DNA of 59,099 nt, filler included, from Dugesia japonica (taxonomy: Eukaryota), in assembly GCA_001938525.1 (NCBI GenBank). It is 5 parts of 5 records of this genome, joined end to end, with 100 filler letters (N's around TTAATTAATTAA, not from the genome) between each part and the next. Parts side by side here need not be neighbours in the genome. Positions count along the whole stretch, not along the records: positions 1 to 14,298 come from MQRL01339190.1; 4 more parts are not named here. One strand, written 5' to 3'. The translations under genes were made by a program, and so were the position numbers. Shown here piece after piece: positions 1 through 32,119 of this stretch (positions within the stretch are counted from its first letter, which is position 1; each line of letters opens with the position of its first letter). The notes beneath the pieces were generated by a model. It ran no database searches and was not told the origin of the DNA. It saw nothing but the letters and a program-made list of their open reading frames with translations.

Positions 1-71
1 TTACATCACTAATCGGCGGGGGGGGGGTTCACTGAATGTGTGCAGAGGTTTACTGCCACTATCTATCTACT
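1..71. mobile_element. Right terminus of an AGTAG...CTACT-ended (Polinton-type) element
   Basis: G-run followed by ...CCACTATCTATCTACT. This is the same terminal motif as at 11696-11711 and 29839-29854. Confidence 0.5.
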
Positions 72-620: not shown

Positions 621-1899
621 TGCTGGAATTTTACTATAATGTGAAAAATGATTTATCGATTATACGAATCACAAAATCTTGGAAAGTTAACCATTTTATT
701 TTGTTAAACACAATTACATTATAAAAATTAACAATATTTACTTTCTTTTCCACAAAATTAATTCTGCAACGATTTATTAACTAATTCCAATTTATTTATA
801 CACAAAGGTTTCTTTAAATCGCCGGATTTCGCAAATAAATATTTTATCGAAGATGATTATAAGCTAGCTAAACTAGTAGTGATAACCAAATTTTTTCTTA
901 TACAGTTTTCTTAGCACACCCCAACTCTCTCCACACTGGGTAACCATTTTAAGATTCTCTATTAACCTTCTTATTGGTCTTGTCTGATTTTCAGAGTTTT
1001 TTTATTTTTTCCTTGTCTTTTATTGGTGCCTATTTTTAGGACATCATGTGATTCTAATTTCTTTGTTTCTTGTGTTTTCTAAGGTCCCCAATTGGCACAA
1101 TCTATATAGCCTTTTTACCTACTCTTCTAATGATATTCCTTTTTCTCTGTTGGTTAAATAGAATTCCTTGTGCCCTCCTAGATCCAAATTTTCTTTCCTT
1201 TTCTTCCTCCGATTTTCCTGTGAAAGTTTTAACATTTATTCACATTTTTGTTAAATTAATTTTCTTTATTACCAATTAATTAATTTTTTGGTTTATTTTC
1301 TAATATTATTCTTTACGATATTTAAATGATGGGATTATTCCCTGCTTATTCTTAATTGTGGTCGGCCCCTTAATAACTTCCACAATATCTTTGAATAGTT
1401 TCTTGTTACTTTCTTGCATTTCTTTCGGATCCTTTTTATTCTCTTAATTATTTTCTTCTAGAATTAAATTGTAAAATTTTGTTGGCTGGCCTCCTTTTTA
1501 ATATGGTTTAATACTTTGAATTGTTTATTTTCGTGGGTTGATATTTCACCCCAACAAATAAATAATATCCTCACAATACCTATAAACATTTATTTGCATA
1601 TCCTCTTCCTACATGACAAAGTAGTATTTATATCAAAAGTAACATTTCAAATATTAGTAAAATTAATCATTATTCAACTTCTGGGTGACTTGCATCTAGC
1701 GATTAAATATAAATTGATTTAAGTTTGTAATCATTACGTAATATTTTTTTATGAAAATTAATAAAATCTGACAGACAGAAAAAATTTAAATAATTAAAAA
1801 ATTAATATTATGTAATTTTTTAACAATAAATTTAATATTTATTAAGTAACACATTTTTTTACATTTTAATGTTATGAAGTTGTGTATCATTTGGATTTT

Positions 1900-1985
1900 C
1901 GGTGTGACGTCATACTTATCAAACCCCGTCAATTCTTGTCACATCTCTATACCGCCCTAAGTGTGTGATATCATTTATGGATTTA
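1900..1985. mobile_element. Harbinger-like MITE end remnant
   Basis: GTGTGACGTCAT...CCCTAAGTGTGTGATATCATTTATGGA resembles subterminal motifs of PIF/Harbinger MITEs. Confidence 0.3.
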
Positions 1986-4358
1986 AGGTTTTTTAAAATG
2001 ATTTTAATTGTTTTTATAAAACTTCATTGGGTTTTAATACGACTTATAAGAGTTTTATAAAGTTTTTATAGAGCTTGATAGGATTTTATTTTCGAATAAA
2101 GGGAAAAAGCACTCTATTCAATATGGCAATACTCGCTTTACACCTTTATCACTGGAAGATGTTTCTGAGTAAAAGGAAACATGAAATGATCACAATCAAC
2201 CAAATTCAAGAATATCGAAGTAGATAACTCTCACAAAATATATAAAGTTTTATAACATATATAGAAAAAAAATATAAGAAAATAGATAGAATTAAGTTTA
2301 TGGATGCTCGACTGCGTTCCTACCTAGAAAAAACAGCTGTATCCAATATAAAAATGTAAAGTCGCGGAGTTCCTGAAAGGTATGTTATGTTATTTAATGA
2401 AAACTTCGTATTTATATTAAATTCATAATTTAATATTAATTAGTAAGATATCAAAAAAGATATATGATGATTTGAAATATGAATACTTTAGGCAATCCAA
2501 AAAATTCAATTTTTAAATGTGGTGAATACACCAATGTCGTGTTTTAAACATTCATGAAACTATTGCATTAAATACAAATTAATGGACTACGCCTGACATA
2601 ACCCTATGAATATCTATTACATAATAAGTAATTGACAAAATAACAAAAATTCCAAAAACCAATAATTATTAATTATAAAACATATAATTATAAAACTATT
2701 TCGCAGTTTCTATATTATACCTATTTTTAACGTAGAATAAATTTCTGATTGGCAATCCTTCATTATATCGTTCAGCATTTGTCTAACATTAAAAAGAACA
2801 TAATATACGGATAATAAAATAGATTTTACTTGTAATACTGAGAATTATTCCAGATTTTTCTCGTCTTTTAAAAATAATTATAATAAATCATAAAAACTAT
2901 AAATATATTTGAAAATAATTACTATTTAAATGCTTTCAATATTCAAATAATTACCAAAAGAAATATTCAAAACAATCATCGAACTCTCATTTAAGAGTAT
3001 GATGGTAAATAAAAATAAGTAGGTAGCGCATCACTAAACCACAGCTGGTCGATATAACTTAAATTAATCAATTGATTAACCGACATATTTTCATCTGATT
3101 AATCAACCAGGACCAATTTTGAATGACCGACTCACGTGTAGCCATTTATCTGATGAATTCACTAGTAGAAACTTAACTTATACTTCTTATTTTTATTATT
3201 TAAATTGTTTCTGACATATTATTTTCAATGGTAGCCAGAGCTTCACTGTGGTATGTTTGACCGACATCTATAGCCTGGTAGTAATATGTTTAAACGGTAG
3301 TTATTATTGTTATATACAGCTTCACTGAAAGCATCTTTGATAGGCGATCACAACTATGCTGTGGTAAGGTTAGAATGGACAAATAATCTTTTTTGCAACA
3401 ATTATTTTTAAAAATCAAAACGCAAACTGATATAGCAACATCACATTAAAAATAATTGCGATAACGTACAAGTAAATTTCGATTTTACGTCACCCTTATT
3501 TTGAATATAAATAAAATATGAAAATTCCAGTTCGATTTTACATGAAAAAATAAAACGAACAACTCTTAACATAAGATGAGTTGATTATATTGTGATAAAA
3601 TGTCAAACTGTCGCAAATATACATGTTTAAAAAAAATCTATTAGTTTATATAAATTATATTCTAAAACAAATCAATTAAGTCAGTCTATCAAATAAACCA
3701 ATTCAATATATACATGCTGAAAAGTCAGCTAAGTATTCAGTCATCTTTAGTGAGTCAAAGTGAAGAGCAGAAGAAGATATAGTAAGATGATGCGCTGAGA
3801 TGGTGGCTGAAACGAGTGGATGTGCTGAACCGTGTGCAGGATTATGCAACAAGATGATTTTGCAAGACAATATGTTATGAATGACCGTGTTCAAATAACG
3901 TAAAGTATGATGTTTGAATGGTTCGTCTGTTTTTCTGGCCATAACAATTTTACAGTTTCTTTAATTATGTGCAAAATAATTATTTATAAATAAAAAAATT
4001 ATCAACAGGATTATGCGTCATCCTTTACTTTTTAATTTACGTAAAATCAAAATTCACTTGTAATGCAAAAAATTTGAAATTGGGAAACTATTTAGATGTA
4101 GAAAAATAACACTTGCTTTTATTTAAGAAAATTATATAATTATTTTCTTCATATTATGTAATTATTTCTTATTAATGACACATAAAAATCCTTTAATTAG
4201 AGTGAAATTGAAAGGTATTTATTTATTATCAATAATTTACCTTTTCACTTGAAATATATTTCTTTATTATATCAATCATTTTGATTTTATTCAGAAAACC
4301 ACTTTTGTTTAAAATTTCAGGATCCTAATTAAAACAAATTAATTTTATAAATTTTCAT

Positions 4359-5049: not shown

Positions 5050-6893
5050 AATAGATAGCTATTCTATATGTAACTAAGTCAGCACTGGCCCATCTACCCA
5101 TCGTCAGTTAATCAGATTTAGCCCATTACGCAATAAATACATGTAGCCTATAATTTTATGCACTTCATTAAGTAATAGGTATGTGTCGATGGCGTAAGAA
5201 ATATAATATTATATAAATAACTACGTAATTAATACTCGATCATACTTAAATTTATACTTAAATTTACCGATTTTATCGATTATATGGACGGAAAATAATT
5301 TTTTATCAAATTAAAATATTTTAATGTTTTTAACTTAAGTGAAATTTGTGATGTTATCATCTTACCAATCATTCAATCCGAAATTTTACACTGGTCAAGA
5401 ATATTCTTGTTAAAAATCAATACTTTACACACAACAAATAAAATGGAAAAAATATATTAGAATAATGAAATGTTTAAGTGAATTTCACGACAATAATATT
5501 ATTTGCCCACTGACCAATTTTTACATTAGCTATTGAATATTAATATTAACATTAGAAATATATATTTATAAGCTCCTCTGATAATATAATAATAATAATT
5601 AAAATAATAATAATACTCAATAATGAATCATAATAATCATAATATTTATTCACATCATATATAATATCTAAAATTTATTTTAAATGCTATATATTTTAAT
5701 GAGAAATTTAAATGGATTGATGTAAAATAATATGATAAATTAAATCATTATGAAAACTTTATAATTATATGAATTTATTGATTGTTTAATTTTCAAACTA
5801 GTTCTAATGATTTATTGTGAATTTAAAGTTAAAAATTAGTTTAATAATTAAATTTTGATAATTTTTATATGTAGTTTAGATAAAAACAATATAAACTTAA
5901 CTAAATAAACTGTCAAATTTAAATGGTTTTTATGAAAGTTATGATAAATGCAAATGGTATTTAGCAAATAATATAAAATTATTTTGAAAACAGGTTATAA
6001 TATAATGATTTATTTTGATTTAACTTTATAAGTTAAATGTTATAACTATTTTATTTAAATTTCATGTAATAATTTTTAAACTTGTAAATTTCAGTAAAAT
6101 TGTAATAATTTAAATGATTTAATAGTCAATAATTATATGTAACAATACTTTTAAAATTACTTGAAATTTAAATTAAATTGTGTTAATTTAAAACTTAAAT
6201 ACTTCATAAGACATCATTATTTAATTTTGACATGTAATAAATACGACTCTGATTGAATTAAGTCAATGAATTTATTTGTTATTTGAAATTATTTCAGATT
6301 CACATGAAGAAACCACTCAAATCCTGCAATAATTACACGCAAAGATTTTAATCAAAATTATTTTCATTATATTTTGAACAAATACTTTTATTATGATTAG
6401 TATTTTATATTATCATGTAGCAGCTAATGTTAAAATTGCCGTGTGGAACTTCACTTAAATGTATTTGTTTATTTTAATATTTTTTTCTATTTTATTTGTT
6501 GTGTATAAAGTTTATTTATTTCTAATTATAATATTTTTGATCAGTGTAAAACTACGCTTTGGATGATGGGAAACATGAATAAAATCTTAACAAAAAAGCA
6601 TGAAAATATTTTAAAAATTCTATGTCCGTCAAAGAAATAAAAAATCTGTAAATTTAAACGAAATATCATGAAAATCGGTTAATTTAATCAAAAATTATTA
6701 AAATCACTTAATTTAAACAAAGAATTAAATTCACTAGTGATTGTGTAATTAATGTATAATAGTATACTTATTGCACCATTGATACTCATCTTTTGCGTTA
6801 CAAAATCGTTAAATTTATAGGCTTCTCTGTATTTATTTCGTAATCGGCTAAACTCAATCTGACGATGGTGCAGTTCAGACTTATATCTCTACT
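5050..6893. mobile_element. ~1.8-kb non-autonomous element with long degenerate TIRs, right end ...TATCTCTACT
   Basis: CCATCGTCAG..TTTAGCCCATTACGCAATAAATACA..AGCCTATAA (~5097-5153) is inverted at ~6810-6868. The interior is extremely AT-rich and non-coding. Confidence 0.55.
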
Positions 6894-6919
6894 CATATAA
6901 AAATAAATATTAAAGCGAA

Positions 6920-8100
6920 AATTAATTACTATTCATGTTTTCCAAAAATATATTGTTAATAAATTTAATAATTTCTTCATTTACAATGTTTAAAATATTT
7001 TCATATTCCTGATTTCTAATCGATTTTAGCTTCGAATTGACATTTTTATACAATTGTTGAAATTTACTATCAGAAATATTTTTGAAATTCACATCAAGAA
7101 TAATTGGCCTAACAATGAATCAATAAAAATTATATATTTAATTTTATTTATACTCAGCGAGATGTGAAATAAATTTCTTAAACAATAATATTATTTCATT
7201 GACAGTCTTCCGATATTTAAGGTTTGATAATAACGTGTCAAGTGAATTAAAAAAATCCAAATTTTTTATCCAATCTTCTTTCATCTTATGCTTACTTTCT
7301 AACAATTTGAACTTTTCAAGGGGGCTTGTTTGAATATAAATTTTTACATGAACAAGTTTTGTTTGACAATAATTAATTATCTCTCTATTAATTTTATTAT
7401 TATCATTATCTAAACATAAAATAAATTTTCAATGAAAATATGATGTTCATTACCTGATTTGTAGTCTATAATAACAGCAATTTTATCATAATCCTCACAT
7501 TCTTTCAATAATTTCTCATTAGTAATATCAAAATAACTATAATAAATAATTTGCATTTCCTCTTTAATGATTGGATGAATTTCATAATCCAAATATATTT
7601 CTATTGAAATATTTTCGATTATTTTCAATTCGGAAATCAAATTTGATAAATTATTTAATTCTTGTATATTCATCATGTATTTCTAGCATTGTTTCAATAA
7701 AATAAATATAGAAAATTATCAATTAAAACCTTATTTTGGAAAACAAAATATTCGCAATTGGTTTTAATAAAATAACATTTTATCGAAAATTTTTCTATTA
7801 AATTTACGAAAGCAGGAATATTTCGCCCAACCAAATCACGTAAGATATCAGAACTATTAGTTAATTGACTGAAACAATATCAAAATAAAAATTAAAAAAA
7901 ATAATTTTACTTTCCGAATATTACATAGTTTGATCCATAAATTTTATCCAATGATATTGATCTGATATTTCTAGTGAATTGGAATACTTCCTCCTTCAAT
8001 TCCTTTGATGTAACAGCTAATTTAATATTTCAATAAATAATTTTTTCAAAATTATTTATTAACATTTTGAGATGAAATGAATAATTTTTTCAAAGTTTTC
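6920..8100 (-). pseudogene. Uncharacterised multi-exon gene or pseudogene, possible F-box-like N-terminus
   Basis: Successive open segments: LFIENIKLAVTSKELKEEVFQFTRNIRS, ORF 7410-7676, QTKLVHVKIYIQTSPLEKF..., IVRPIILDVNFKNISDSKFQQLY.... No firm family motif. Confidence 0.3.
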
Positions 8101-8539
8101 TATTGATTTTTGTAACTTGCTAAAATAAAAATTATTCTGAAAATTTATTATATAATTCAAAATTTTGATAAGCACTTGATTCTTAATAGAATCAAGTAAC
8201 TTGATTCATAATAGAATTCAACAAAATAAGTTATTACACAGTTTAATGAGAAAAAATAAATTTATATTGATACATTTAAAATAATTTTACTAATTTAATA
8301 AATGTGTATTAAATAATAAAACTGATGAAATTTTTTTTGTGATTCAATATAAACTGATAAAAAAAGGTTAAAAAGATAAGCATAGAATAAAAAAATTAAT
8401 AATAAAAATTTTTTATATTTTTTATTGATTTATTTTAAGGGATGATTGTTAGGCGCATGTTAAAATTATCTCAATGACTGAATTATTTTAGAAATGTTGA
8501 AATTAGAGATGATTAATATAATTATTTGCAAAAGAATTA

Positions 8540-9026
8540 ATTATTTGTCAAGTAGAAAAATGTCATTTCCGACATTTATTATTATTTGAATTCAACAGAG
8601 GTGTTAATGCATCGAAATTCGCTGAATCAATTTATGCAATGGGTTCTTGATTTCAAATAGTGATATGTTGATATACTATATTTAACGTACTAGAAGTCTT
8701 TATTCACGCTAACAACTCGGAATTGGTTATTATGATACACCATCAATCAACTATAGTGCGAACTTTTAAAATCATGGGTAAAGATCTTTTTTGAATTGTT
8801 GTTGGTGATGAAAAAATATACTTTCATGATGATGCCAATAAAAGAAATGAATAGCTTAGTTGTTATGAAGAACAACTTCTCATTTTGCATCCAATTTCCT
8901 CTCCGATTAAAAATTACTTTAACTTTTATACTTCCAAACCAAAGGATATTTTAGCCATGGAATAGAAAGGTTTTCAATTTTTTTGGAAAGAATTGTAAAT
9001 AATGAAAGGGGATATTTTTTGATTAG
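8540..9026 (+). mobile_element. Internally deleted mariner transposase remnant
   Basis: HFRHLLLFEFNRGVNA (mariner N-terminal HTH), IVVGDEK (cf. IVTGDEKW) and a C-terminal FSHGIER..WERIVNNE-like segment, with frameshifts. Confidence 0.75.
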
Positions 9027-9229
9027 TATTTGTACTTTTTTGTTAAAAATCAATACATTTTATTATTATTATTTTAATAAAGAATGAAAAAGTAAATAAC
9101 CGTTTAATTTTTTCATTGCTTTCAACAAATGGTGATACATATGAAGACTTTATTTTCTAAAACATTAATTATTATTAATATTAAATCAATACATGTATAT
9201 AATTCTTCAAGTATTAATATTTTTTTAAT

Positions 9230-10330
9230 ACGAACGAATCTTGCACCTTACATGTAGTGCTTGAAATGCATGCAAAAATAATACACAGCCAAGAACGTCT
9301 TACATGTGATACAGTATATTTTTTAATGACATGTCATTGATTTCAATCTATACTCAACAACGTTTTCTCTTCATTCGTTATTTCATTGTAACATACTGTT
9401 TAGATCGTATCGAAACTGACGTATATACAATTTCCAATTACAAATTCGTTAGCAACTTTGTAATTTTTTGAAACATGTAAGTTTGTTAAATGAACCAATA
9501 ACTTATATTTTAGACGATTCAGTTCAAACACCATATCTGCGCCATACTATAGCGTCATTAATTCTGCCTTTTGTAATATTCTCTAAAACATTGACTTTTT
9601 AATATTGTATTTAATTATCTGAAACATATACATAATTTTAAGAGTATTTAAGGCTCTCATTATTAAATGTCTCTAAATTTTCCTTTGACATTACAAATAT
9701 AATTTTCAACTTTTTATTTGTTTTATTGTAACTTTTTCATAAAAACTAGTAAATAAATTTTTTCTGCATAATTTCTCATCCAATCAAATCTGCTGTCAGT
9801 CTGCAACTAAGAAAATAACTTCTGTACAATTGATCAATTGTCCCTTCATTTCTAACTATCACAATAATTTCAAGTGTGGAATCATTTGCACACCGCCATC
9901 TTTCGTTGCTAACATTTAGGTGTTGTTCTCGAAATTTACAAAAAACATCTAAACTCATGTTTTATTCGGGTTTCACTATCTAAAACACATTCAGCTTTAT
10001 TCCCTTGAATTGATACGGTAACACTTGGTCTCACTTCACTTGATAGTACGAAAATTTCATTTTCAGTTCAACTTCAATTCACCCAATAAATTTTATTATT
10101 TCCAAACATTCACTTTACTAAAAACCTGTATAATCTCTTTGAATATTTTCCCATATTATGGCACTATTCGACCCCAATATGGAAAATCAATCAATATATT
10201 TGTAAATGAGTAGAACCATGTTGTTTTGGTACTATCGTTTGAAACCACTTTTTTATATGAAACCGATCACTTAAGTAGATGGATATGGTCTTAATGGATC
10301 AGAATTGGACGCATCATGAAAGGTATGAAT
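9230..10330 (-). mobile_element. Heavily deleted Ty3/Gypsy remnant (gag start, protease, RNase H)
   Basis: SDPLRPYP (cf. TDLLRPRP at ~46100), MSLDVF...RCANDSTL (cf. protease 47237-47590) and YCITCKTFLAVYYFCMHFKHY (RNase H). Confidence 0.7.
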
Positions 10331-10652
10331 TTTCAAAACTTTGGCGATAATTTTAACATCTTAAAGAAAACAATTAATTTTAATATTGAAACCATGGAAA
10401 ATTAGCACTACATTTGTTTTTTTAAATGAATGAATTTTCACAACTTAATGTAATCAGTGAAATTTCAAACCCTTGGCATGAACTTTTACACTACAATATT
10501 TTAACCAAGTCCACTAAAAAAATAATCATGTAAAATATCACACTTGAATCATGACTGAGAAAATTTGAAATTTCGGTAATCATTATTTCGGACAGATGTA
10601 AACGTGCAGGTATTTCCATGTTATTGTTGAATGTGTAACGAAGTGACGGGTC

Positions 10653-11711
10653 AGTAGATAGATAGTAACGCATTTAAACACCCCCTCCCCCACTCAAAGT
10701 AGAAAATTTTCGAGGTCAAAGTGTTAACGTATACTTGATTCTTATTGGTGGGAGATTTTTTCAAGGTCAAACTATCTACGTATACTCGATTCGGATTGCA
10801 GGAATATTTCAATGTCAAAGTGGCTCATTTTACTCAATTCTGAGTTGCCGAAATTTTCAAGGTCATAATATTTCAAGCATAAATGTAATTAGGTCAAGGT
10901 TATTTCCATGACAACTATCATCCGGGCAGACTTCATATTTAATTTCTTTGCGCAGATTTAATATTTAAATTTCCCGCGCAGACATAATATTTTTTGTTTA
11001 AATTAATTGATTTGTGTGATTTGTTTAAATTTACTGAATTCAGTAATTTAACTTAATGATTATAAATAAACACATTTACATGTAACTTATTTTGTTATTT
11101 AAACTAATTAACTTGTATTATTAAAATCTAATTTACAATTAAGATCCAGATTTAAACAACTGTTCATAATGACTGTGATTATCTGTTTTATCAACAATAA
11201 ATTTTATGTTTTGATTAGTCTTTTCATTTGTCTTTTATATATTATTAATAATATTGTCTGAGAAGCATGTAATCTTAATATTGCTAGGAACGATTAATAT
11301 TGATGTTAATATTGGTCGAGGGAAAATCACTTCAAAATTTGAAAACTTAAACAATATAAGTTTTCCCATACATTTTCTTTGAAAAATCCTTAAAAATCAT
11401 TAAATCACTTAATTTAAATAAAAATCTCAAAAATCAGTAAATTGCCATGGAAATAACCTTGACCTAATTACATTTAACCTTGACCTACATTTACTCGATG
11501 GTTGAAATAGTAAACCAATCAGAATAGAGTATAATGAGATACTTTGACCTTGAAAAAATGTCCCACTGATCAGAATCAAGTATACGTAAACAATTTGACC
11601 TTGAAAAAATGTCCTACTGATCAGAATCAAGTATACGTAAGCACTTTGACGTTGAAAATTTTTCTATCTTGGAGGGAAGCGGGTGTTTACATGCGCTACT
11701 ATCTATCTACT
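10653..11711. mobile_element. 1059-bp non-autonomous element with ~260-bp TIRs, AGTAGATAGATAG...CTATCTATCTACT termini (mini-Polinton-like)
   Basis: 10653-~10915 is the reverse complement of ~11442-11711. The TIRs contain ~51-bp subrepeats. Flanks CGGGTC / CGGATT resemble a decayed 6-bp TSD. Confidence 0.75.
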
Positions 11712-14238
11712 CGGATTTCATTGTGTATACGTATGTTTATACAAGTGGGACGGTAAAATATGTATTAAAGATGTCAAAATGAATACTCGACCAGCCTCCT
11801 TTTTAAACCTTAAGTCCTAATTTTAGTTGTATTCTACTCAGAAAAAAACTGTTTATACATTGTCTAAAACAATTTTGTCGTAAAATATTTTGTCATCTTG
11901 AATATTTAGCACGGGATCACATAATGATAGTTGTTAAAATTATAATGAAATATTAATTTATACTGTAACATGTTAGCCCCATTAGAATCAGCATAAAAAA
12001 CTGCATATACATTGTTTCATCGAAAATGATATATTCAAAAATGACCTCCCACCGAAGATCTTATAAAGAATTTGGTTTTCAGATTTTAGTTTAAAAAATT
12101 AAAATGTAAAATAGAATTATCTAATGAATTTTTATCAAAAAATGTTTCCTTCATCAAGGTGGTGGTTAAAGATACATATCAATTAAATAGGTCAAAGTCC
12201 ACTTATAAAAATGTTTTCATCAATAACATAATGTATATTAGGATCGTAATAAAATGTTGAAATCGAAAGTATTATTTAAATTTAAAAATATACATTTTAA
12301 AAACATGTACCATTTTATAGAGAATAAAAAGTAGACTACAATAAATTTAGTAGAATACCTTCACACAAGTGTTTTCTAACAATGTTATCGATAAAATAAA
12401 AAAATAAACTGTTCAAAAATACTAGAAATAAGTACGTAATACACACTAATATGTGTCGCTGTGTAAAACATGATAATTCGGTAATCTTTTCGAAAATATG
12501 AAGAACAGTTAAGTAATACATATCAATGTGCCTTTGGGTATTTGCATTGGAAAAGTTGTATTCAATTCGATTAGTTTTTCTTCCCCTTTGTTTCTATCAT
12601 TTCTTAATCACCTATTTCATCAAACTAATCCATATAACAACCAACAAAATCATGAATGTATCAATAAAACAAAGAGAAATCTTACTAATTTATAGTTCTT
12701 TATAGCCTCCAAAATCGTATTTTCATTCTAAATAATAATTAAAACTTATTACTAAATTTCAATAAAATAAAAAGTAATCGATTTCTAATAATAAATGGTT
12801 ATTTATTAAAAAAAACGTTTAAATCCTAAATTTAAGATAAATAATTATTTAACTTAATTTAATGAAATCTAAGCTTTCCGTCTACTTGTTTTGTGTAGCA
12901 TAGTAATCTTATAGAAAATATAAATTTTTATGTCAATTGTTTCTAAATTTAAAGTAAAATTAAAAATTTTTATCAAAGTAAAATTTGGAAAAAATAAAAA
13001 AATTGTTTTGACTTAAGCTTTCAGATGTTAATATCAAATAATAATTGTCCTAAATATAATAATGGATACAAAAAATTACTTAACTTGAATCTTTTAAATG
13101 AAACAAAATATTAGACACTGTATGTAGGTGGATAGCAGCGCATTGAAACACCTCTTTCTTCCAAAGTCCCTTCTCACAAACAAAGTGGTTTAGAAATTTA
13201 GTGGTTTGAATTTTGATCTGGTGCAGTATAATCGTTTCTGATTAGACAAAAGTTTATATTGACTTTCCCTGTCGGATGGTATTGCACAAGTATTACAATA
13301 GTATCGTCATATTCGGAATGATGTGACGTATTTCATAGTACAATCATCAGTTCAATGAAGAGTGAAAGCAAAAATGAATATATAAATGAATATAAATGGA
13401 AAACTTGCTCCACCCAGTATTTTGATTGGATCAACTTGAGATTGAACCATTCGACTGGATATTAGAAACTTCCTATGTATTACCTAAATGACTATACAAT
13501 GTTTTGTTCTCGAGATAACGGGTTTAATGCCCCGCAACACTTTAATGATAATCGTTTTACAATTAAAATTATTAGTAGAATAATTGTTGGACTTAACCAT
13601 TGGTCGCATTTTAAATTTCATTAAAATTTTTATAAAATACTGATAATANNNNNNTATATATATATATATATATATATAATCTAATATTAATTTTTACAAA
13701 TATTTAATAGCACCATTGGAATCTGCTTAAACAATTAACAATACATTGTTTTATCGAAAATTGGTTTCCTAATATACCAAACCCCTTTCGCCAATGAGGT
13801 AATTTAGAAATTTGGTTTTTATATTTAGAAAGAAAATAAAAAAAGTACAATAGGAACAGACCCGTACAAAATTTATGAAAATGGCTACTTCTAATTGAAA
13901 AAGGTGGATAAATGTACAAATCAATTTTATAATTTGAAGTCCATTTAAAATCGAATTTTCTGTTCATAACCTATATAAAAACTTCGATTACAATGTTTTT
14001 TGGTTTTTAATCTTAAAAATTTAATTATCAATATCAAAGAAACCAAAATAAAAATGTGATCGAAGCTTTTATTTAAATGAATATCAAAGTAGGTTTTCGA
14101 TATCCTTGCCACTTTACATAATATTGTTTATTCTTACCGCTTTCTCTTGATTTTATAATTTTTTTATTCTATATATATAGGAAGTGAAATAACTTTAAAT
14201 TCTTGCTAATAAAAATTTTTTGCTAAAATAAAAAAAGT

Positions 14239-14275
14239 CAATTCCTGACGAAGACAAGGTCGAAATATCGAATTG
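14239..14275 (+). ncRNA. Minimal type I hammerhead ribozyme motif (Penelope-associated type)
   Basis: CAATTC-CTGACGA-A-GAC-AAG-GTC-GAA-ATAT-C-GAATTG. Helix I is CAATTC/GAATTG, the core is CUGANGA/GAAA, helix II is GAC/GTC, and helix III is the palindrome ATAT. Confidence 0.7.
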
Positions 14276-14298
14276 TTATCCAATATCAATAATTAAAA

Positions 14299-14398
14299 NN
14301 NNNNNNNNNNNNNNNNNNNNNNNNNNNNNNNNNNNNNNNNNNTTAATTAATTAANNNNNNNNNNNNNNNNNNNNNNNNNNNNNNNNNNNNNNNNNNNN
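14299..14398. other. Artificial scaffold-joining spacer N44-TTAATTAATTAA-N44
   Basis: The identical 100-nt spacer occurs four times. The 12-mer has stops in all six frames. Confidence 0.95.
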
Positions 14399-14536
14399 AG
14401 AAAAAAAAACCAGCCCAAAAATAGTGTCACCAAAAATAGTACCCTCATCGTTATGTGTTTTCGAGCCCCCCCCCCACGTGGGGGGGTTCCGTCTAGCGCT
14501 ATGCAAGTACGGGCAGTGTGCCGCTATCCTCCTACT
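14399..14536. mobile_element. Right terminus of a CTACT-ended element
   Basis: ATGTGTTTTCGAGCCCCC...GGGGGGGTT...GTGTGCCGCTATCCTCCTACT matches the terminus at 29786-29854. Confidence 0.5.
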
Positions 14537-14932
14537 GTTATTAACTAAAGATTTCCAATAAATAAAAAAGAAAAATATAATTTTTACTACCACTATTTTG
14601 TTTACTTAATATTTTTACAATACCTTCTAATAATATCTCATACATTCTAAATAATTAAAAATAATAATTCGACGTTGGAGATTATTAGTATTAGAATTAG
14701 TATGTTTTTTAACTATGATCTCTGACATCGTATCTTAAATAAAGAAATAAATATTTTATAAATAGCTATCAGATTCGTAAATTTAATCAAAATAATATGA
14801 TAATTACGATAACCAAATATTTAGAGATAAAATAATAGCAAGAACAGTGATATCAGAGAATAAATAAATTGTAGCAAATAAATAGATAATATATTAATAC
14901 AATTTCAAAAATTAATTGTAATTATGTTTTAG

Positions 14933-15218
14933 ACGATAGTTGTGCTATTCTTCTATGGATCAGTGAGTTTTATTTATTTATTGAAATAATAACAAATCTA
15001 GTTATTATTATTCTTGCTGTCCATTTTCTGGAAACACGATTCAAATTGTTCAGTGAGTTTTTTAAACTATTTTCTTAACAAAATTTAATACAAATCTTTT
15101 TATGTTATAAAAAAATTAATTAAACAAATCAGAATTTGCTGATAAGTGTGCGAATTCAGGAGATGCTTACGTTAATTCAGTACCCGGTGTTGTAAATACG
15201 GATACAGATGAAATTTAG
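14933..15218 (+). CDS. Candidate micro-exons encoding a hydrophobic segment (DDSCAILLWI-IIIILAVHFLETRFKLF-KFADKCANSG...)
   Basis: AG/GTGAGT-bounded phase-1 exons 14933-14962 (30 nt) and 15002-15052 (51 nt). The next acceptor is at 15132. Confidence 0.45.
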
Positions 15219-15228
15219 AAACTCTTAT

Positions 15229-16640
15229 AATATTTATATTTGAATATTGCTATTTGAATATTGTTATTTGAATATTGCTATTTGAATATTGCTATTTGAA
15301 TATTGCTATTTGAATATTGACATTTGAATAATGTTATTTGAATATTTATATTTGAATATTGTTATTTGAATATTGCAATTTGAACATTGCTATTTGAACA
15401 TTGCTATTTGAATATTGCTATTTGAATATTGCTATTTGAATATTGTTATTTGAATATTGCTATTTGAACATTGTTATTTGAATATTGTTATTTGAATATT
15501 GCTATTTGAATATTGTTATTTGAATATTGCTATTTGAACATTGCTATTTGAATATTGCTATTTGAATATTTATATTTGAATATTGTTATTTCAATACTGT
15601 TATTTGAATATTGCTATTTGAACATTGCTATTTGAATATTGCTATTTGAATATTTATATTTGAACATTGCTATTTGAATATTGCTATTTGAATATTGACA
15701 TTTGAATAATCTTATTTGAATATTTATATTTGAATATTGTTATTTGAATATTGCAATTTGAACATTGCTATTTGAATATTGCTATTTGAATATTGTTATT
15801 TGAATATTGTTATTTGAATATTTTTATTTGAATATTGTTATTTCAATACTGTTATTTGAATATTGCTTTTTGAACATTGCTATTTGAATATTAAAATTTG
15901 AATAATGTTATTTGAATATTAAAATTTGAATAATGTTATTTGAATATTTATATTTGAATATTCTTTTTTGAATATTGCAATTTGAACATTTCTTTTTGAA
16001 TATTGTTATTCGAATATTGCTATTTGATTATTGCTATTTGAATATTGCTATTTGAATATTGACATTTGAATAATGTTATTTAAATATTTATATTTGGATA
16101 TTGTTATTTGAATATTGTTATTTGAATATTGCTATTTGAACATTGCTATTTGAATATTGTTATTTGAATATTGCTATTTGAACGTTGCTATTTGAATATT
16201 GCTATTTGAATATTTATATTTGAATATTGTTATTTGAATACTGTTATTTGAAAATTGCTTTTTGAACATTGCTATTTGAATATTGTTATTTGAATATTGC
16301 TATTTGAATATTGCTATTTGAATATTGCTATTTGAATATTGTTATTTGAATATTGTTATTTGAATATTGCCATTTGAACATTGCTATTTGAATATTGTTT
16401 TTTGAATATTGCTATTTGAACATTGCTATTTGCATATTGCTATTTGAATATTTATATTTGAATATTGTTATTTGAATACTGTTATTTGAATATTGCTTTT
16501 TGAATATTGATATTTGAATATTGTTATTTAAATATTGCTATTTGAATATTGATATTTGAATATTGGTATTTGAATATAGTTATTTGATTATTCATATTTG
16601 AATATTGATATTTAAATATTGTTATTTAAATATTGTATTT
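15229..16640. repeat. 14-bp satellite (G[C/T]TATTTGAATATT)n, about 100 units
   Basis: Direct tandem repetition over ~1.4 kb. Confidence 0.97.
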
Positions 16641-19848: not shown

Positions 19849-22153
19849 TTTGTTTGCTAAAAGATCTCAAATGCTAGTTTAGATATTCCTTCCATTCTAA
19901 TAACACCTTGTTTTGACAAGTTTTACAAATTAATTTTTATTGAATGGCTGAAATAATTTTACGCTTCCAAATTAAATAAATTTCCTCTCATTCCGTTCTA
20001 TTAAGACCTTATTCATCGACTGTTGTTCATATTTTCCTTAGGAATTCTCTGACGATTTAAATCTTGATTATTTTATATCATAATAGTTCGATAAATTATA
20101 AAGCTTCGATCAAAATGTTGTATTTTTATATTTTTTAGTTGTTATCAATTCGAATTTTCAGCAATTATCTTTAGGAATTAACTTTATGATTTATTCAAGA
20201 TTTATTTATAAAAAGAATTTATTGAATTTTACTGAACTATATGTATTTAACACGCCGCGATAAACAAAGCCATCTTGAAGGTTAAAAATTCGTCCCAGCT
20301 TAAGCACTTCATTGTTCGGCCAGTGTAAAGATGTCAAACCAAACAAAAAGATAAGAAATAAGAAGATGGGGCAAGGAAATGAGGGGAAAGTTTGGAAACC
20401 CTAATTAAAATCGACCACATCAATTTCCTGGTCGATAGAAGAGGAAATTTTCTTTTCACATTTTCACGTAACCCAACCTGTTTTATCCCTGGTTCATTTT
20501 AAACACACTATGATCAAACAGAATAAATAAAATTCATTTTAATATTTGAATATTTCATTTTAAATATTCCATATTTTGGATTTCGATAAATTTAATATTA
20601 ATTTCATTTAAATATATCACAACTTGCTTTACTAAAGTAATTCTTTATGTTTCTTCCTATAAACTATAGAGTCTGATGATACAAGATTGGTGAGCTCATA
20701 ACAATGAGTTTTTGACTTTAAGGATTTCCGGTGTTTCATGTGGTGGTTGAATTTTTTCGGTTTTTGAGTTCTTGGAAAGAGTAGGTGTATTTGTATGTTG
20801 TTGTTTTGAGGTTGATTTTTTGGATTATTGATGAATTTATTTTAGGGTTTATGGTTAATGGTTTGTTAGTAATGTAGGTGAATAGTATATAGATAAGTGT
20901 GCACTGGAACACCTATGTGCGTACCCCCCATTTGGGTGTAAAATGATTACATAAGTTTTCTAATGTAAATAATCGAAGACGCATTGATGTGTATTATGCA
21001 ATGTATTACATAGTGTTTCGGCTTATATAAGATTTAGTCGAGTAATAAATTACGTGACTTTTGCTCGTATTTTGAAAGGTTTACCGAATTATCGGGTTTT
21101 ATATGTAATGAGTAAATTTGTGTGTATTACATAACTTTTGTTCGTATTTTTTTTTGAATAGTTTATTGAATAATTTGAACAGTTTACTGAATTATTTGAC
21201 TAATTTACCAAAGTATTTAAATTTTCGGATGATTTTTTAAGCAAATTTTTCGAGAAGGTTGACTTAGAAGGTTGAAAATTTAGGGATGAAAGTAAAGGAA
21301 AGGAATATCGCAAGTGGATATTTCGAAGTACAAAGTGTTATAGTCTACTTAGTGAAAAAGCGAGCATGCATGCAAAAATCATGGTACTAAAGAGTACAGA
21401 CATAAAACATCAATCATATATAGACTGAGATAATAACAACGAATATGTTTCTGTCTAACAATTTTGAAAAATGACAGAACGTAATTAATTAGTTTTATAA
21501 GTAAATTTGCGTTATCAAATAACGAAAATAATAGGGTTTGAATAAACAAAAACGAAAGTATCCCCTATGGTCACTAATACAATATAATAATGCACTTTTT
21601 TTCATGATATTGTGCTGTCACCATTTGTAAAGAAAATCCAAGTTTACCAATTTTAAAATCCCACGTTAAACATAGGAAAAAAATTCCAAAAATAACTAGA
21701 AGTCCTCAAAACGTTTCATGAATTTATTAGTAGTTAATAGAACTTTGTAAAAGATTACTAGACATTGATAAAAATTGTAATGTAATAAGTAGAAAACACA
21801 AAATTTGCATTATGGCTTCATTTTTTATTTTTTTGATTATATCTGATGTTTCATGAAACCTTAGCATTAACATATAAAAAGTATAGTAATTATCCTGGCG
21901 AAATGGCAGCCCTGTATGAATAACAACAATAATATTACATAGTTATTTAACAATTATCAATACTTACTCGTATTATCACTGTGCATTTCATTTGTTTTCA
22001 TCAATGGTCTTCAGTAATAACATTGATTGCACAATCGTACCCAAGGCAACCAAAAATATATCATTAAACTTTCGATTTAAATTTATAATCAATGGTGAAT
22101 GTGAATCTTTAGAATTAATTGATATATCGTAACAATTATTTTATTAATTGTAG

Positions 22154-23393
22154 AATCGAAGGTCTAGATAAACAAGAGAGGTGTGAAGCAGATATTAATT
22201 GGGAATTGTATCATGCTACAAAGCCACCGAAAAACATGCAAATATTGTTAAAAAAATATAAAAATATTAATCTAGCAAATTGGAAATCTCAAGATTGGAT
22301 GATGAATGAATTGAAAACTTTCTTACTAACTAAAAATCATAAAATATTTATTCAATTGTTTGGTGTGTATTTCGATGACTCGTTGTATGTTGCTATGGAA
22401 AATATGGAGGAGGTATGTTTTATTTTAGAGGGTTTTCAATTTAATTTAATCCTTTTGCAATTTTGCTTATTACTTTTAAAATTTAAAAAATATTTAAATA
22501 ATTTAAAATGAAAAACATTATTTCGAGAAAAAAGCAACTAGAATTAAAATTATAACTGAAACAAGTAAAAGTTTTATTCTATCAACAATGGAAGATGTTT
22601 CAATTACCTTAAATCAATTAAAAAAATTATTACAATCAAAACTACTGATAGTGAAACTTATTTAAGTACCATTAATAATTCAATAACAACATTAAATTAT
22701 TCTTTTAAAAGAATAAAATTAATTCCTCAATAAATAAATTCAAAAATTTATATTGAAAAAAGTATGATTATTGAGTAAATTATTTAAGTTATGATGAAGA
22801 TAAAGTGATATTTCTGGATGAGTATGGAGTAAGTTGCTCTTTGAGACAAAAATTTGGAAGAAGTTTGTTTAAGGCAAATAATTCAAACATAAAAGAAGAA
22901 TTATACGCTGCTATTAACTCAACAATATCGAATATTACTGAAATGAATTATATAAATTATTTTAGTCATGTTAGAGAGTTTGCGGTAATAAAATATTTGA
23001 AAATTTAATTTTCTTGTCTCATAATTTCTTTAAAATTTTTTATTATTTTTAACCTAAGATTAAATTAAGTTGAAACCCTGTATCATTTCATTCTATAATA
23101 AATATTTTGATGAAATTATGATTCAGGGAACTTTGAAAAATTATTTAAAAAGAAATAAAAGTTTTGAAAGAAAATTAATTTGCAAATGGTCGGAACAGAT
23201 TCTTGAAGGATTGGAATATCTTCACGATAGAAAAGTTGTCCATCGAGATTTGAATCGTACAATTTGTTGGACGAATTTAATGAATTATTTATTTATTTCT
23301 AGCATCGAACATTCTTGTGAATGCCAACATTGATTTGAAATTATCGAGTTTCAATTTATCAAAATATGAAAAGATTTATGGGCCCGCTTCTTT
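22154..23393 (+). CDS. MAPK-like protein kinase fold, probable pseudokinase; 3' end cut by scaffold end
   Basis: Exons 22154-22412, 23127-23256 and 23303-23393 give ...LYVAMENMEE/GTLKNYLK...[41 protein letters not shown]. Confidence 0.8.
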
Positions 23394-23493: not shown

Positions 23494-25800
23494 CTTTTAT
23501 CTAATTTGGAGTCGTATTCATAGGCATAACATTTTGATTTAATAAAATCGCATTTAGTTATTTCATTGTTTGGTTTTTCATCTTTCATTTGAAATAAATT
23601 ATTTCCAATAAACTTGTTACTTGTTTTAAATTTTCTTGTCCAATTATTTCTATAAATATAGAATCAGTATCTGAGTAATGAATTTTGTATGGGGCCCTTT
23701 GGGATTTATTAGGAATCTTTACATCTAATTGATTATTAATAAAGTCATAAATTACTTCTTTAACATATTCTAAAATAGTAAAACCAATGTAAGGGAATTT
23801 ATTATACTTTAATTTACTCTGTCTTAAATGGATTGCTGCTGTTTCTGCTTCCAAAGGTNGCGAGTGTCCACGAGCTTCTCCTGTTTCTGTACATGTAAAT
23901 ATTTTACTTGATTTAAAATTTATTTTAGAAGTAAATGTTTGACAATCTTTATCAGTTTCAACTATTTCAACATTACATCTTTTTCTGATATCTTCTAATG
24001 TTTTACCATAAAAAGCATTATTTAATAATTTGAAAAAGTAATCTCCAAAAACATCGTTATTTCTTTTTGATTCATTTCTTTGACCAATAGTAAATTGAAT
24101 ATAATCTTTTAACCAACGGTTTGTTGGCATTTTATATTTACTATGAATTGTTTTTATTTTCCTTCTTAAAGATTTGTATAAATCTAATGTACTTCCTAAA
24201 ACAATATAATTTTGTTTATCAAATTGATATTTACTTTTTACATAAATTCCAAGAGATAATGGTTTTTGTTTATTTGTAATTGTACTTGTCCAACTTTCCA
24301 AATCTGCATAAATTACAAAAGGTAATTCATTTGTGTAATAATTATTTTTAAATGAATAATATTTATCAGTTTCATAATAAAAATTTGATGAATAATGATT
24401 TATACATTCTTTTTGATGATCAATTAATAAAGTTTTACTTCTAAATGAATTCATACAACATAACCATAATTCATTTTGATGATTATTAGTATTTGCAAAA
24501 ACGCCAACATTTCTACATAAAATATAATGACCTTTATAAAATAATAAATTAAATTTATTCGGGGCCCCTTCTGAAGCATTTGAATTANNNNNNNNNNNNN
24601 NNNNNNNNNNNNNNNNNNNNNNNNNNNNNNNNNNNNNGATGGGACCCTTTGGGATTTCGTTCATAATGAGAAATGTAAATAGGATAGATTTTTACTTTTG
24701 ATGTTACTTCAAATACATTTACTTTAAAATCATTTAATTTTTCAAATAATTTTACATCATCAATACTAGCTGAAAAATTAATTCCGTTTGTTTTCAATTC
24801 TGGAATAAATTGTTTATAAACACTTGCTTTAGTTTGATGATTTTGAAAAACATGTTTATGAGNTAAAATAAAATATATAAAACCATAATTATCCTTATTT
24901 ACAATATTAATTACACCTGGTTTTGAAAATGATAATTTCTTAAGTTGCACCAGCAATAGATTGATATTTAGAAAGTTCGATTTTAAAATTAACAATACGA
25001 TCCAAATTCCAACCAGATTCATTTTGATCTTCATCTTCCATGAATCTTTGAAGTTGATTTATTAAATTATTTACAATAATTTTTACATCACTTTGAACAG
25101 TGATTGTTTCATTATCAGAATATGAATTAAATATTCTTTCTTTGCCCTCCGTTTGCGTCTTTACAATTTACACTCAATTGCAACATCATTTTCTTTGAAT
25201 AATCAAAATATATATCAACAATTTTAGTAATTTCTTTTTTAAAATAACTCCTGTATTTAAAACATAATTGTTGATTATTATTTCTAGTTAATTCAATTTT
25301 ACTTTCTTTAAAATATTCGATTTTATAATATTTTATATTCTTTAAATGTTTAAATAAATTTCTTGTTTCATTCTTTTCAAAATCAATTACCTCATCACCA
25401 GGTAATTTCATCAAATAATTTTTTAGTTTCATCTTCTTTCAATTTCAAAACACGATCTTTGTGTATTCCACTATTAAAATGTGATTTTGCATGATTATAT
25501 TTACTAAAAATTAAATGGGGCCCGTTGGGATTGCAAATATCACAATATAATGGAAATACACCAATCCCAGACATGCCTCAAATACTTCCACAATTTGTGG
25601 ATTTTTTATGCAATCGCAAGCCTTTTTCTCTTGCTAATCTTTTGAAGCAAATGCTACATGTGAAATAATTGTGTACCGATAAGGCACATGTTTGAGATTG
25701 GATATGCGACGAATACCCTGGGTTTTTTTAAAAGTCTTGTTACAAACAGGACATTTAAAAATTACCGCTAAAGCGCTTTTTCCACTTATTCATTTTATAG
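23494..25800 (-). mobile_element. Polinton/Maverick protein-primed family B DNA polymerase gene, decayed and internally deleted, with upstream C2H2 zinc-finger region
   Basis: VIYADLES (ExoI), FFKLLNNAFYGKTLED (motif B), HYSDTDSIF (motif C), FEKLNDFKVNVF..IYPIYIS and LLFYKGHYILC. Zinc fingers FKCPVC and YCDIC..H..H lie at 25460-25765. Confidence 0.9.
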
Positions 25801-25949: not shown

Positions 25950-27300
25950 CAATGCCGTCCATATGTTTTGGGCCACCCCTATAAAATGATGAAAATATAT
26001 AATTATAAGTACTTTAATTTAGACTATATTTAAAAATATCAAATAATATGTTGAAGTACATGTTTCCAATAAAAAATTTTCAAAGTAAAATTGTTGTAAG
26101 TGTAGAAAAACCGATTTTTCCAAAAACATCAATTTTTAGGTCATTTTGAATACAAGAGTAAAAATTCAATAAAACATCTTTTATTTACATTTCAAATGAG
26201 GNAACACATTATAATAAATAGTCCACCTCATGAACAATCAAGACACTCAAAATTAGTACCTTGTATTCATACCTTTATGTTTAATTACCCCTTGAATCCT
26301 TCTTGGCATGCTTTCATAAAGATTTTTAATTTTAGATGTTGGAATCAACGCCCATTGCTCCTCGGAATTCTTCCACAGTGCCTCAATATTTGCTGGCTTA
26401 CACATAGCAACTTGGGCTTTTAGGTCAGCTCAATTATATTCAGGTCTGATGATTGAGCCGGCCAATCACTGAGTACGCAGATTTTTTTCATGTCCAAAAA
26501 AGAAGACACCAATCGTGATTTATAGCATGGAACTCCGTTACATATGAAGCTCCAGAATATATTTGTTGAAAAATATTCTGTGCCTCATATATTGGCAACA
26601 ACCCTTTCTTCAATACATTCATGTAGACATCAGAATTCACCTGATCCAGACACCTTATCAGAACTCTGGTACCATCTTCTTTGATNNNNNNNNNNNNNNN
26701 NNNNNNNNNNNCTCCGAATTTCACCGTTTTCGTGATATATTTTGGATTATACCTTGATCCTTGAGGTCTGCGGACATATTCCCTTCTTCTAGAAAACAGT
26801 TCTATGCGACTTTCATCAGTAAAAATCACCTCATTCCAAAAAGAAGGAAGCAGTTTGCTATAATCTCTGCACAACTTTAAGCAATTCTTGATATGTCTCT
26901 CATTTAAATATGGGTTTTTCACTGTAATTCGTCTGAACAAGCCATACTTTCTCAGAATGCGCTTCACAGTACTAACTGAGGAAGTTTGACTTAATTTCCA
27001 ATCGATAAAAAGATCACGTGCTGTTTTCTGGGGATTTTTCTATAACATCCGAATAAGTGATCTTTGTGCATTTTTCGGGTAACGACCACTTTTACTTAGG
27101 TTTTCCAATGTTCCATGTTGTTGCAGCTTCCGTACAATATGTTGAATATCATTCTTGAAATATTGAGTTCATTTGAAATGTTCGGCTGAGACAAACCCTC
27201 TTTCAATTTTTTAATGACTAAATTCCTAATATCTATTGATATCTTGGCATATCTTTAACATAAGAATTTCTAAAAGTAAAAAAATATATTACTTAATCAT
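25950..27300 (-). mobile_element. Tc1-family (DD34E) transposon, decayed, one TIR retained
   Basis: TA|CAATGCCGTCCATATG terminus at 25950. Transposase ~26280-27251 has FWNEVIFTDESRI, TVKFG, IFQQ and DWPAQSSDLNIIE, with frameshifts. Confidence 0.9.
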
Positions 27301-32059: not shown

Positions 32060-32119
32060 CATAATTTTAAATCCTTAGCTGTTTCTAAATATAATATAAA
32101 AAATGTATAAACAACAATT

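What the first reader, a model, noticed from the sequence alone, without database searches (positions are those of the whole stretch)
10653..11711. Miniature non-autonomous element with Polinton-type ends
Seen: 1059 bp with ~260-bp TIRs starting AGTAGATAGATAG and ending CTATCTATCTACT. The TIRs hold ~51-bp internal subrepeats and the interior is non-coding. The flanks CGGGTC/CGGATT are 4/6 identical, and both differences are transitions. Established: Polintons have 5'-AG...CT-3' ends with short terminal tandem repeats and 6-bp TSDs. Inference: a MITE-like or satellite-like parasite mobilised in trans by Polinton pPolB and integrase. The subrepeats could be protein-binding or packaging sites.
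Basis: partly seen in the sequence, partly recalled or inferred. Interest (0 to 1): 0.7.

Follow-up and report, generated by a model that had tools for sequence, protein, structure and literature searches.

The report
Miniature Polinton-type hitch-hiker with receptor sites
This 1-kb gene-less jumping element is one old copy of an abundant repeat family in an animal genome; its ends suggest it is likely moved by the enzymes of large virus-like Polinton transposons, and its arms carry rows of sequences shaped like host transcription-factor sites whose use is untested.

Summary
The element is real. It spans 10653-11711, with inverted arms 77% alike over 273 columns, the first 15 bases identical, AG...CT ends and no gene. 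In four public runs depth collapses at 11711, where 61 contigs run on into unrelated DNA, so it is a multi-copy mobile family. The flanks fit a decayed 6-bp duplication better than any other length (4/6; chance 0.5% at 6 bp, 3.3% for any length). A broken Polinton-type polymerase lies 12 kb away, unlinked. No autonomous Polinton with these ends could be examined, so Polinton mobilisation is inferred (about 0.6).

New here:
- The 51-bp subrepeats centre on TCAAGGTCA, the ERR-type nuclear-receptor site; all 4 perfect copies in the window lie inside the element.
- The left arm adds an E2F/CHR-like 26-bp array that this copy's right arm lacks; the arms were probably about 400 bp.

The scan's notes already report AP-1 and DREAM-like arrays at such ends in this genome. 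Non-autonomous Polintons are known (recalled); the small size, abundance and motif arrays are unusual. Nothing found supports a packaging role.

The parts
10653..11711 (.). whole non-autonomous TIR element, 1059 bp, 29% GC, non-coding
   Evidence: depth confined to this span in 4 runs; end fixed at 11711
10647..10652 (+). left flank hexamer CGGGTC, candidate target-site duplication
   Evidence: covered without difference by a public contig (X1 record 1)
11712..11717 (+). right flank hexamer CGGATT, candidate target-site duplication (4/6 match, two transitions)
   Evidence: not covered by any of the 8 runs laid
10653..10667 (+). terminal core: 15 bases identical in both arms, AG followed by a 4-bp TAGA micro-repeat; the first 14 recur in another end at window 58-71
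10653..10914 (+). left arm, main inverted-repeat segment
10707..10902 (+). array of about 51-bp units, each centred on a TCAAGGTCA-type 9-mer (starts 10710, 10761, 10809, 10857, 10894; 10761 and 10857 perfect)
10922..10992 (+). 26-bp tandem array; its best unit holds TTTAAA next to TTTCCCGCGC (E2F plus CHR-like, 10964-10979); absent from the right arm of this copy
   Evidence: relatives have the site in more units (tables 3 and 7)
10993..11061 (+). 27-bp AT-rich units, inner part of the left arm; similar to 29-bp units of another TIR element at 6642-6725
11062..11384 (.). AT-rich non-coding interior (about 22% GC), colinear in other copies
   Evidence: overlapping contigs of other copies tile 11071-11443 (table 8)
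11385..11443 (-). inner remnant of the right arm, inverted counterpart of 11001-11061; joined directly to the outer arm, which implies loss of about 85-120 bp
   Evidence: opposite-strand joints 11034-11037 to 11432-11436 and loose ends behind 11443 in other copies
11442..11711 (-). right arm, main inverted-repeat segment, with 51-bp array at 11518-11658 and TCAAGGTCA-type sites starting at 11655, 11604, 11553, 11483, 11462 on the minus strand (11604 and 11553 perfect)

Best explanation
The element is an old copy of an abundant gene-less repeat family with AG...CT ends and long inverted arms, likely derived from the ends of a Polinton/Maverick and likely moved in trans by Polinton enzymes. Shown: fixed ends, many insertion sites, no coding capacity, and arms built of a short terminal core followed by tandem modules. 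Inferred: the Polinton retroviral-type integrase would recognise the terminal core and insert the element with a 6-bp stagger. The protein-primed polymerase would copy an excised molecule from its ends, the AG/TAGA micro-repeat suiting protein-primed initiation (established for adenovirus and phi29 ends, recalled). The subterminal modules are shaped like host factor sites (ERR/NR5A-type TCAAGGTCA; E2F plus CHR). They would act in cis to open or license the ends in particular host cells, as host-factor sites do in adenovirus terminal repeats (recalled), or they are simply inherited from the parent Polinton's terminal promoter. This copy has since decayed by point changes and lost part of its right arm.
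For: Ends: 61 contigs (17, 20, 17, 7 in four runs; 325 laid in all) have loose ends behind 11711 with low agreement (0.47-0.53), and summed depth falls from 5,300-16,300 to 0. AG-starting ends of the same type also lie at 71-, 6893-, 14536-, 20884+. Duplication: k=6 gives 4/6 and likelihood ratios of 14-47 for 10-30% divergence; all other k from 2 to 12 give 1.3 or less; random position pairs reach this 0.47% of the time at k=6 and 3.3% at any k, of 20,000 pairs. Most relatives are under 95% alike to this copy (X11: 2632 of 3826 laid), so a decayed duplication is expected. Published Maverick features: end motifs (AGT)2 or (AG)3, TIRs of 46-1447 bp with mean 402, 6-bp TSD (PMC8097293, section 7 and passages). 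The other eukaryotic 6-bp-TSD group, IS3EU/GingerRoot, has TA..TA ends (PMC10045372, passages) and gives 0/6 here. A pPolB remnant at 23514-25161 has 124 homologs at E<=0.001; hits carry PF03175 and PF02945. Motifs: 4 of 4 perfect and 10 of 15 one-mismatch TCAAGGTCA sites of the window lie in the element, against 0.004 perfect sites expected in 1059 bp. The 9-mer is the best-kept part of 7 units (95% against 74%). At the three imperfect sites the contigs mostly carry the motif letter, also in a second organism (10712, 10813, 11651). TCAAGGTCA is the ERRE (PMC4978380, passages).
Against: The duplication is imperfect and from one copy, and the right flank is not confirmed by any of 8 runs. With the boundary moved inward to TAG...CTA a 5-bp reading gives 3/5, so 6 bp is best but not unique. 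The terminus AGTAGA matches (AGT)2 at only 5 of 6 positions. No autonomous Polinton with this end was seen. The pPolB remnant is internally deleted, 12 kb away and not bounded by matching ends or a duplication. Polintons are usually low-copy: fewer than 10 copies and no non-autonomous ones in the anole (PMC3014272, passages). The arms are only about 81% identical with more transversions (29) than transitions (19). The motif count is inflated because the units are copies of one another, the conservation test was anchored on the 9-mer, and the motifs were recognised after the fact. Summed contig depth is not a copy number.
Confidence: 0.6

Rival explanations
1. The element is an ordinary MITE-like derivative of an unrecognised cut-and-paste DDE transposon with AG ends. 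The 51-, 26- and 27-bp subrepeats would then be transposase-binding sites that only happen to look like host factor sites.
For: High abundance, about 1 kb length and subterminal repeats are typical of cut-and-paste MITEs (established knowledge). Several different families in the window share only a short terminus, as MITE radiations do. The duplication is imperfect.
Against: No superfamily checked fits both ends and duplication. TA..TA with 6 bp gives 0/6; 8 bp gives 2/8; 9 bp gives 1/9; there is no TTAA; the ends are not TGT..ACA. An earlier scan note reports a DREAM-like repeat near a Polinton end in the same genome (e1-9221229, unchecked).
Confidence: 0.22
2. The element is Polinton-derived but is moved only by the Polinton integrase in a cut-and-paste manner, as Ginger elements are, without protein-primed replication or capsid.
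For: Ginger2 transposases group with Polinton integrases and move small TIR elements; how either is excised is unknown (PMC2836005, passages). Insect Polintons lacking polB appear to stay mobile (bioRxiv 10.1101/2025.02.07.637071, passages). The arms of this copy are only about 81% alike.
Against: Several arm differences are changes private to this copy: the letter most relatives carry at 10712, 10726, 10743, 10813 and 11651 equals the other arm's letter. The terminal micro-repeat is kept perfectly at both ends.
Confidence: 0.12
3. The stretch is a one-off remnant, a large element whose middle was deleted in place and that never moved in this short form.
For: No contig spans the whole element. 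This copy has at least one internal deletion in the right arm.
Against: Contigs of other copies overlap to tile the interior 11071-11443 at roughly 80-92% identity with no common breakpoint (tables 6 and 8), so the interior is colinear in other copies.
Confidence: 0.06

Closest known systems
Polinton/Maverick elements (PMC8097293, section 7 and passages; bioRxiv 10.1101/2023.08.22.554363, passages)
   Same: AG...CT ends with a short terminal repeat; arm length (262 bp, probably about 400 bp) within the 46-1447 bp range; 6 bp is the best-fitting duplication.
   Different: 1 kb instead of 13-25 kb; no pPolB, integrase, ATPase, protease or capsid genes; terminal repeat has a 4-bp period (TAGA) rather than (AGT)2 or (AG)3; far more copies than the usual few.
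Non-autonomous Polintons (Kapitonov and Jurka 2006, recalled; paper not held), polB-less insect Polintons (bioRxiv 10.1101/2025.02.07.637071, passages) and TIR-only insertions in C. elegans (bioRxiv 10.1101/2024.01.15.575659, passages)
   Same: Polinton-type ends without a full gene set, presumed to be moved in trans.
   Different: The insect cases are 12 kb or more and keep several genes. No MITE-sized, abundant family with factor-site arrays appeared in the passages read or in the listings.
MITEs of cut-and-paste transposons (classification rule in PMC4455052, passages)
   Same: Short, non-coding, TIR-bounded, multi-copy, with subterminal repeats.
   Different: End and duplication signature fits none of IS3EU/GingerRoot, Ginger, hAT, MuDR, Kolobok or Academ as tested here; the last four signatures are recalled.
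ERRE TCAAGGTCA (PMC4978380, passages) and the E2F/DP-LIN-54 (CDE/CHR) hybrid motif (PMC3093354, passages; the motif's letters are in a figure that was not visible)
   Same: Perfect ERRE 9-mers in both arms; an E2F-type TTTCCCGC next to a TTTAAA CHR-like hexamer in the left arm (letters of these two motifs recalled).
   Different: Here they are tandem arrays in a gene-less mobile element. Binding is untested, and the host's receptor for this site is unknown (NR5A/FTZ-F1 and GCNF bind similar sites, recalled).

Membership tests
Polinton/Maverick | 5'-AG ... CT-3' termini | tested here: met
   contigs of many copies end at 11711
Polinton/Maverick | terminal short tandem motif such as (AGT)2 or (AG)3 | tested here: inconclusive
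   AGTAGA matches (AGT)2 at 5 of 6 positions, then a TAGA repeat follows
Polinton/Maverick | TIRs of tens to about 1500 bp | tested here: met
   262/270 bp main arms, probably about 400 bp originally
Polinton/Maverick | 6-bp target-site duplication | tested here: inconclusive
   4/6 in one old copy; best of k=2-12; chance 0.5% at k=6 and 3.3% at any k; right flank not confirmed by runs
Polinton/Maverick (autonomous) | pPolB, integrase, ATPase, protease and capsid genes; 13-25 kb | tested here: not met
   longest ATG frame 44 codons; 1059 bp. It is not filed as an autonomous Polinton.
Non-autonomous Polinton derivative | same TSD length and terminal bases 1-11 (at most 1 mismatch) as a classified element (rule in PMC4455052) | not testable with these tools
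Non-autonomous Polinton derivative | Polinton machinery present in the host genome | tested here: inconclusive
   broken pPolB remnant at 23514-25161; integrase and intact copies not seen in this window
MITE-like element | short, non-coding, TIR-bounded, multi-copy | tested here: met
IS3EU/GingerRoot | TA..TA termini with 6-bp TSD | tested here: not met
   boundary at TAG...CTA gives 0/6 (signature from PMC10045372)
Ginger1/Ginger2 | TGT...ACA termini | tested here: not met
   ends are AGT...ACT (signature from PMC2836005)
hAT / MuDR / Kolobok / Academ | 8-bp, about 9-bp, TTAA, or 3-4-bp TSD (the last with TAG ends); signatures recalled | tested here: not met
   2/8; 1/9; no TTAA; 1/3 and 1/4 at the TAG boundary
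Nuclear-receptor / DREAM response element arrays | binding of the factor in vivo or in vitro | not testable with these tools
   sequence match and conservation only

The most novel reading that the evidence does not exclude
This genome holds a radiation of MITE-sized Polinton satellites. They share a 15-30 bp protein-priming and integration core but carry interchangeable arrays of host transcription-factor sites: nuclear-receptor and E2F/DREAM here, bZIP-type at 20884, AP-1 in another note. The arrays time mobilisation to host cell states and scatter ready-made enhancer cassettes through the genome, and the satellites give a minimal cis-sequence with which to test the unproven Polinton excision-replication-integration model.
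Probability: 0.2. Interest if true: 0.78.

Novelty: new variant of a known kind. Interest (0 to 1): 0.45.

Why it matters
Polintons have so far been characterised mainly in silico (bioRxiv 10.1101/2023.08.22.554363, passage), and how they are excised is unknown (PMC2836005, passage). A natural 1-kb passenger would mark the minimal cis-sequence their enzymes need and would be a ready reporter substrate. If the arrays bind host factors, an abundant repeat family would be a source of nuclear-receptor and cell-cycle regulatory sites across the genome. Earlier scan notes call the host a planarian (not tested here). In the planarian Schmidtea, Polintons are piRNA-silenced and derepressed during differentiation (PMC8532177, passages), which would fit such host-state cues. 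If it proves to be an ordinary cut-and-paste MITE, it is a routine repeat annotation.

Tried and rejected
- Viral contigs: 6 of 6 matches to a 17-base end pattern were one unrelated context.
- Metagenome contigs: 0 matches to a 30-base pattern; 47 matches to an 18-base pattern, 0 of 47 with similarity beyond the pattern.
- Empty-site allele: no joint across the element among the joints shown (15 shown, 96 not shown). The right flank had no cover in 8 runs; the tool warns that a hole proves nothing.
- Pairing other AGTAG-type ends in the window to get more duplications: no second intact element. The 4/6 and 5/6 hexamer matches between unrelated ends are chance among many offsets tried, which also cautions against over-reading a single 4/6.
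- The pPolB remnant lies between ends at 20884+ and 29854-, but these are different families with no matching arms or duplication, so no link is claimed.
- Pfam and PDB searches missed the remnant. The Atlas gave only a lead at score 0.80; the homolog search settled it.
- No Rfam family. The arms fold back as expected (-205 kcal/mol, no shuffle control), which adds nothing beyond the alignment.
- Look-ups of earlier findings by sequence gave nothing relevant.
- Kapitonov and Jurka 2006, PMC5898198 and PMC7165386 were not held. No supplements were read; Repbase-type libraries or supplements may already list this family.

Full report
Observation. The stretch 10653-11711 starts AGTAGATAGATAG and ends CTATCTATCTACT. 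The arms 10653-10914 and 11442-11711 align at 77.3% over 273 columns; the first 15 bases are identical and there are 48 mismatches in 259 gap-free columns. Units of 51 bp lie in both arms, and 26-bp and 27-bp units follow the left arm. The longest ATG frame is 44 codons and Rfam has no match.

It is a mobile family. Of 16 runs listed, 11 hold part of the stretch, none half or more of its words. Laying 4 runs on 10450-11900 placed 946-3882 contigs per run. Summed depth was mostly in the thousands inside the element and 0-7 in the bins just outside. Laying 4 further runs on the right end gave depth 5,300-16,300 over 11685-11704 and 0 from 11720. Of 325 contigs laid, 61 have loose ends behind 11711 and 11 behind 11712 in the rows shown; those behind 11711 are AT-rich with agreement near 0.5, as independent insertion sites would give. 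Summed depth is not a copy number. The direct lower bound is about 20 distinct flanks in one run; hundreds to thousands is a plausible order (inference). One contig covers the left junction with no difference; none covered the right flank. Contigs of other copies tile the interior 11071-11443 with overlaps (table 8), so the interior is colinear in relatives, but no contig spans the whole element. A second organism (run X7) holds related subrepeats and interior, with much lower depth at the tips.

Duplication. For k=2-12 only k=6 fits: 4/6, with likelihood ratios 4, 14, 36 and 47 at 5, 10, 20 and 30% divergence, against 1.3 or less for all other k. Of 56,951 window hexamers 0.86% match CGGGTC at 4 or more places. 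Of 20,000 random position pairs, 0.47% reach the observed ratio at k=6 and 3.3% at any k. Moving the boundary inward to TAG...CTA gives 0/6, 1/3, 1/4 and 3/5. The copy is old: most relatives are under 95% alike. This is moderate support from one copy, not proof.

Each 51-bp unit centres on TCAAGGTCA. All 4 perfect copies in the 59-kb window, and 10 of 15 with at most one mismatch, lie in the element; 0.004 perfect copies are expected in 1059 bp. Among 7 units the 9-mer is the best-kept stretch (95% against 74%), though the comparison was anchored on it and the units are copies of each other. At the three imperfect sites most contigs carry the motif letter (10712, 10813, 11651), in organism A and in organism B. 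TCAAGGTCA is the estrogen-related receptor response element (PMC4978380, two passages); NR5A/FTZ-F1 and GCNF bind similar sites (recalled). The 26-bp array holds TTTAAA next to TTTCCCGCGC, the only TTTSSCGC in the window. It resembles the E2F/DP-LIN-54 hybrid site (PMC3093354, passages; motif letters recalled). Relatives carry this site in more units, and this bin has the highest depth in the three organism A runs. The right arm lacks this array: 11385-11443 is the inverted counterpart of 11001-11061 (0 of 500 shuffles reach the score), and contigs of other copies join the two on opposite strands (table 5). The arms were therefore probably about 400 bp, and this copy lost about 85-120 bp on the right (inference).

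Surroundings. Ends of the same type occur at 71-, 6893-, 14536-, 20884+ and 29854-. A matrix built from seven such ends gave 10 hits above score 12. Seven are seeds, and three are not (4959-, 13123+, 34453+), against 0-3 in five shuffles, so only 13123+ (also BLAST-similar, E 0.003) is more than a lead. These ends diverge after about 15-30 bases. The end at 20884+ carries 9 matches to a bZIP-type pattern in 400 bp against 0.55 expected (pattern chosen after the fact, both strands counted). At 23514-25161 on the minus strand lies a broken, internally deleted family B polymerase: 124 homologs at E<=0.001 among 1492 candidates, best 37% identity, several with PF03175 and PF02945. I read this as a Polinton-type pPolB from its domain content (inference). 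It is not bounded by matching ends.

Mechanism. Most likely (0.6) the family derives from Polinton ends and is moved in trans. Integrase would recognise the terminal core and insert with a 6-bp stagger, and pPolB would copy an excised molecule from its ends. Shown steps: fixed AG...CT ends, many insertions, no genes, best-fit 6-bp duplication, polymerase remnant in the host. Inferred steps: parentage, which enzymes act, and any role of the motif arrays. A gene-less element has nothing to transcribe, so arrays kept in two organisms would most simply serve end access or replication, as host-factor sites do in adenovirus terminal repeats (recalled), or be passengers from the parent's terminal promoter. 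Packaging is unsupported: the element is under a tenth of a Polinton's length and no evidence bears on it. Rivals: MITE of an unrecognised DDE transposase (0.22), integrase-only movement (0.12), one-off remnant (0.06).

Comparison with what is known. Vertebrate Mavericks have (AGT)2 or (AG)3 ends, TIRs of 46-1447 bp and 6-bp TSDs (PMC8097293, section 7 and passages); a wider range of 5-8 bp is also quoted (bioRxiv 10.1101/2023.08.22.554363, passages). Non-autonomous elements are classified by TSD length and terminal bases 1-11 (PMC4455052, passages); that test needs a classified partner and could not be run. Non-autonomous Polintons were named in the 2006 description (recalled; not held). polB-less insect Polintons remain mobile (passages), TIR-only insertions occur in C. 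elegans (passages), and the anole has none (passages). I saw no MITE-sized abundant Polinton derivative in the listings, and no link of TCAAGGTCA to such elements. The library lacks most subscription papers and Repbase, so this is not proof of novelty. The scan itself noted AP-1 and DREAM-like arrays at such ends in this genome (e1-9359705, e1-9221229) and a gene-less 7.6-kb Polinton-type element in another genome (e1-7884016); these notes are unchecked leads.

Verdict. A real, old copy of an abundant non-autonomous TIR family that works most likely like a Polinton passenger; it is not an autonomous Polinton, and membership is unproven. New variant of a known kind; interest 0.45.

Noticed in passing
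window 1-71: Right end of a sister element, cut by the window start; its first 14 bases are identical to the element's terminus, then it diverges and has a poly-C run.
   Followed up: partly
window 5050-6893: Older TIR element of about 1.8 kb with arms about 73% alike, an AGTAG-type right end, a decayed left end and 29-bp units similar to the element's 27-bp units; no duplication recognisable.
   Followed up: partly
window 20884-21283: AGTAT-starting end followed by a cluster of TTAC(A/G)TAA-type (PAR-bZIP or C/EBP-like) words, 9 matches against 0.55 expected with a pattern chosen after the fact; a related inverted piece lies at 12394-12567.
   Followed up: partly
window 13123, 14536, 29854, 34453, 4959: Further AGTAG-like ends. 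14536- and 29854- are related to each other and have poly-C runs; 13123+ resembles the element's first 42 bases.
   Followed up: partly
window 23514-25438: Broken, internally deleted family B polymerase of Polinton type on the minus strand, with frameshifts and an assembly gap.
   Followed up: yes
window 26488-27039: Tc1/mariner transposase remnant (PF01498, E 5.5e-09).
   Followed up: no
window 37750-38202; 36844-37898: Phosphofructokinase exon (PF00365, E 4e-37), next to duplicated blocks, one of them 124 bp at 100% identity beside assembly gaps, possibly an assembly artefact.
   Followed up: no
window 46568-49682: Decayed gypsy-like LTR retrotransposon pieces (gag-, protease-, RT- and RNase H-like frames recognised by eye).
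   Followed up: no
window 32117-34069 and 13555-13627: Another TIR element of about 1.95 kb (arms about 85% alike over 100 bp) with a related end at 13555.
   Followed up: no
window 15229-16640: Minisatellite of about 101 copies of a 14-bp unit.
   Followed up: no
window 22119-23333: Short frames with protein-kinase-like words, just upstream of the polymerase remnant (recognised by eye).
   Followed up: no
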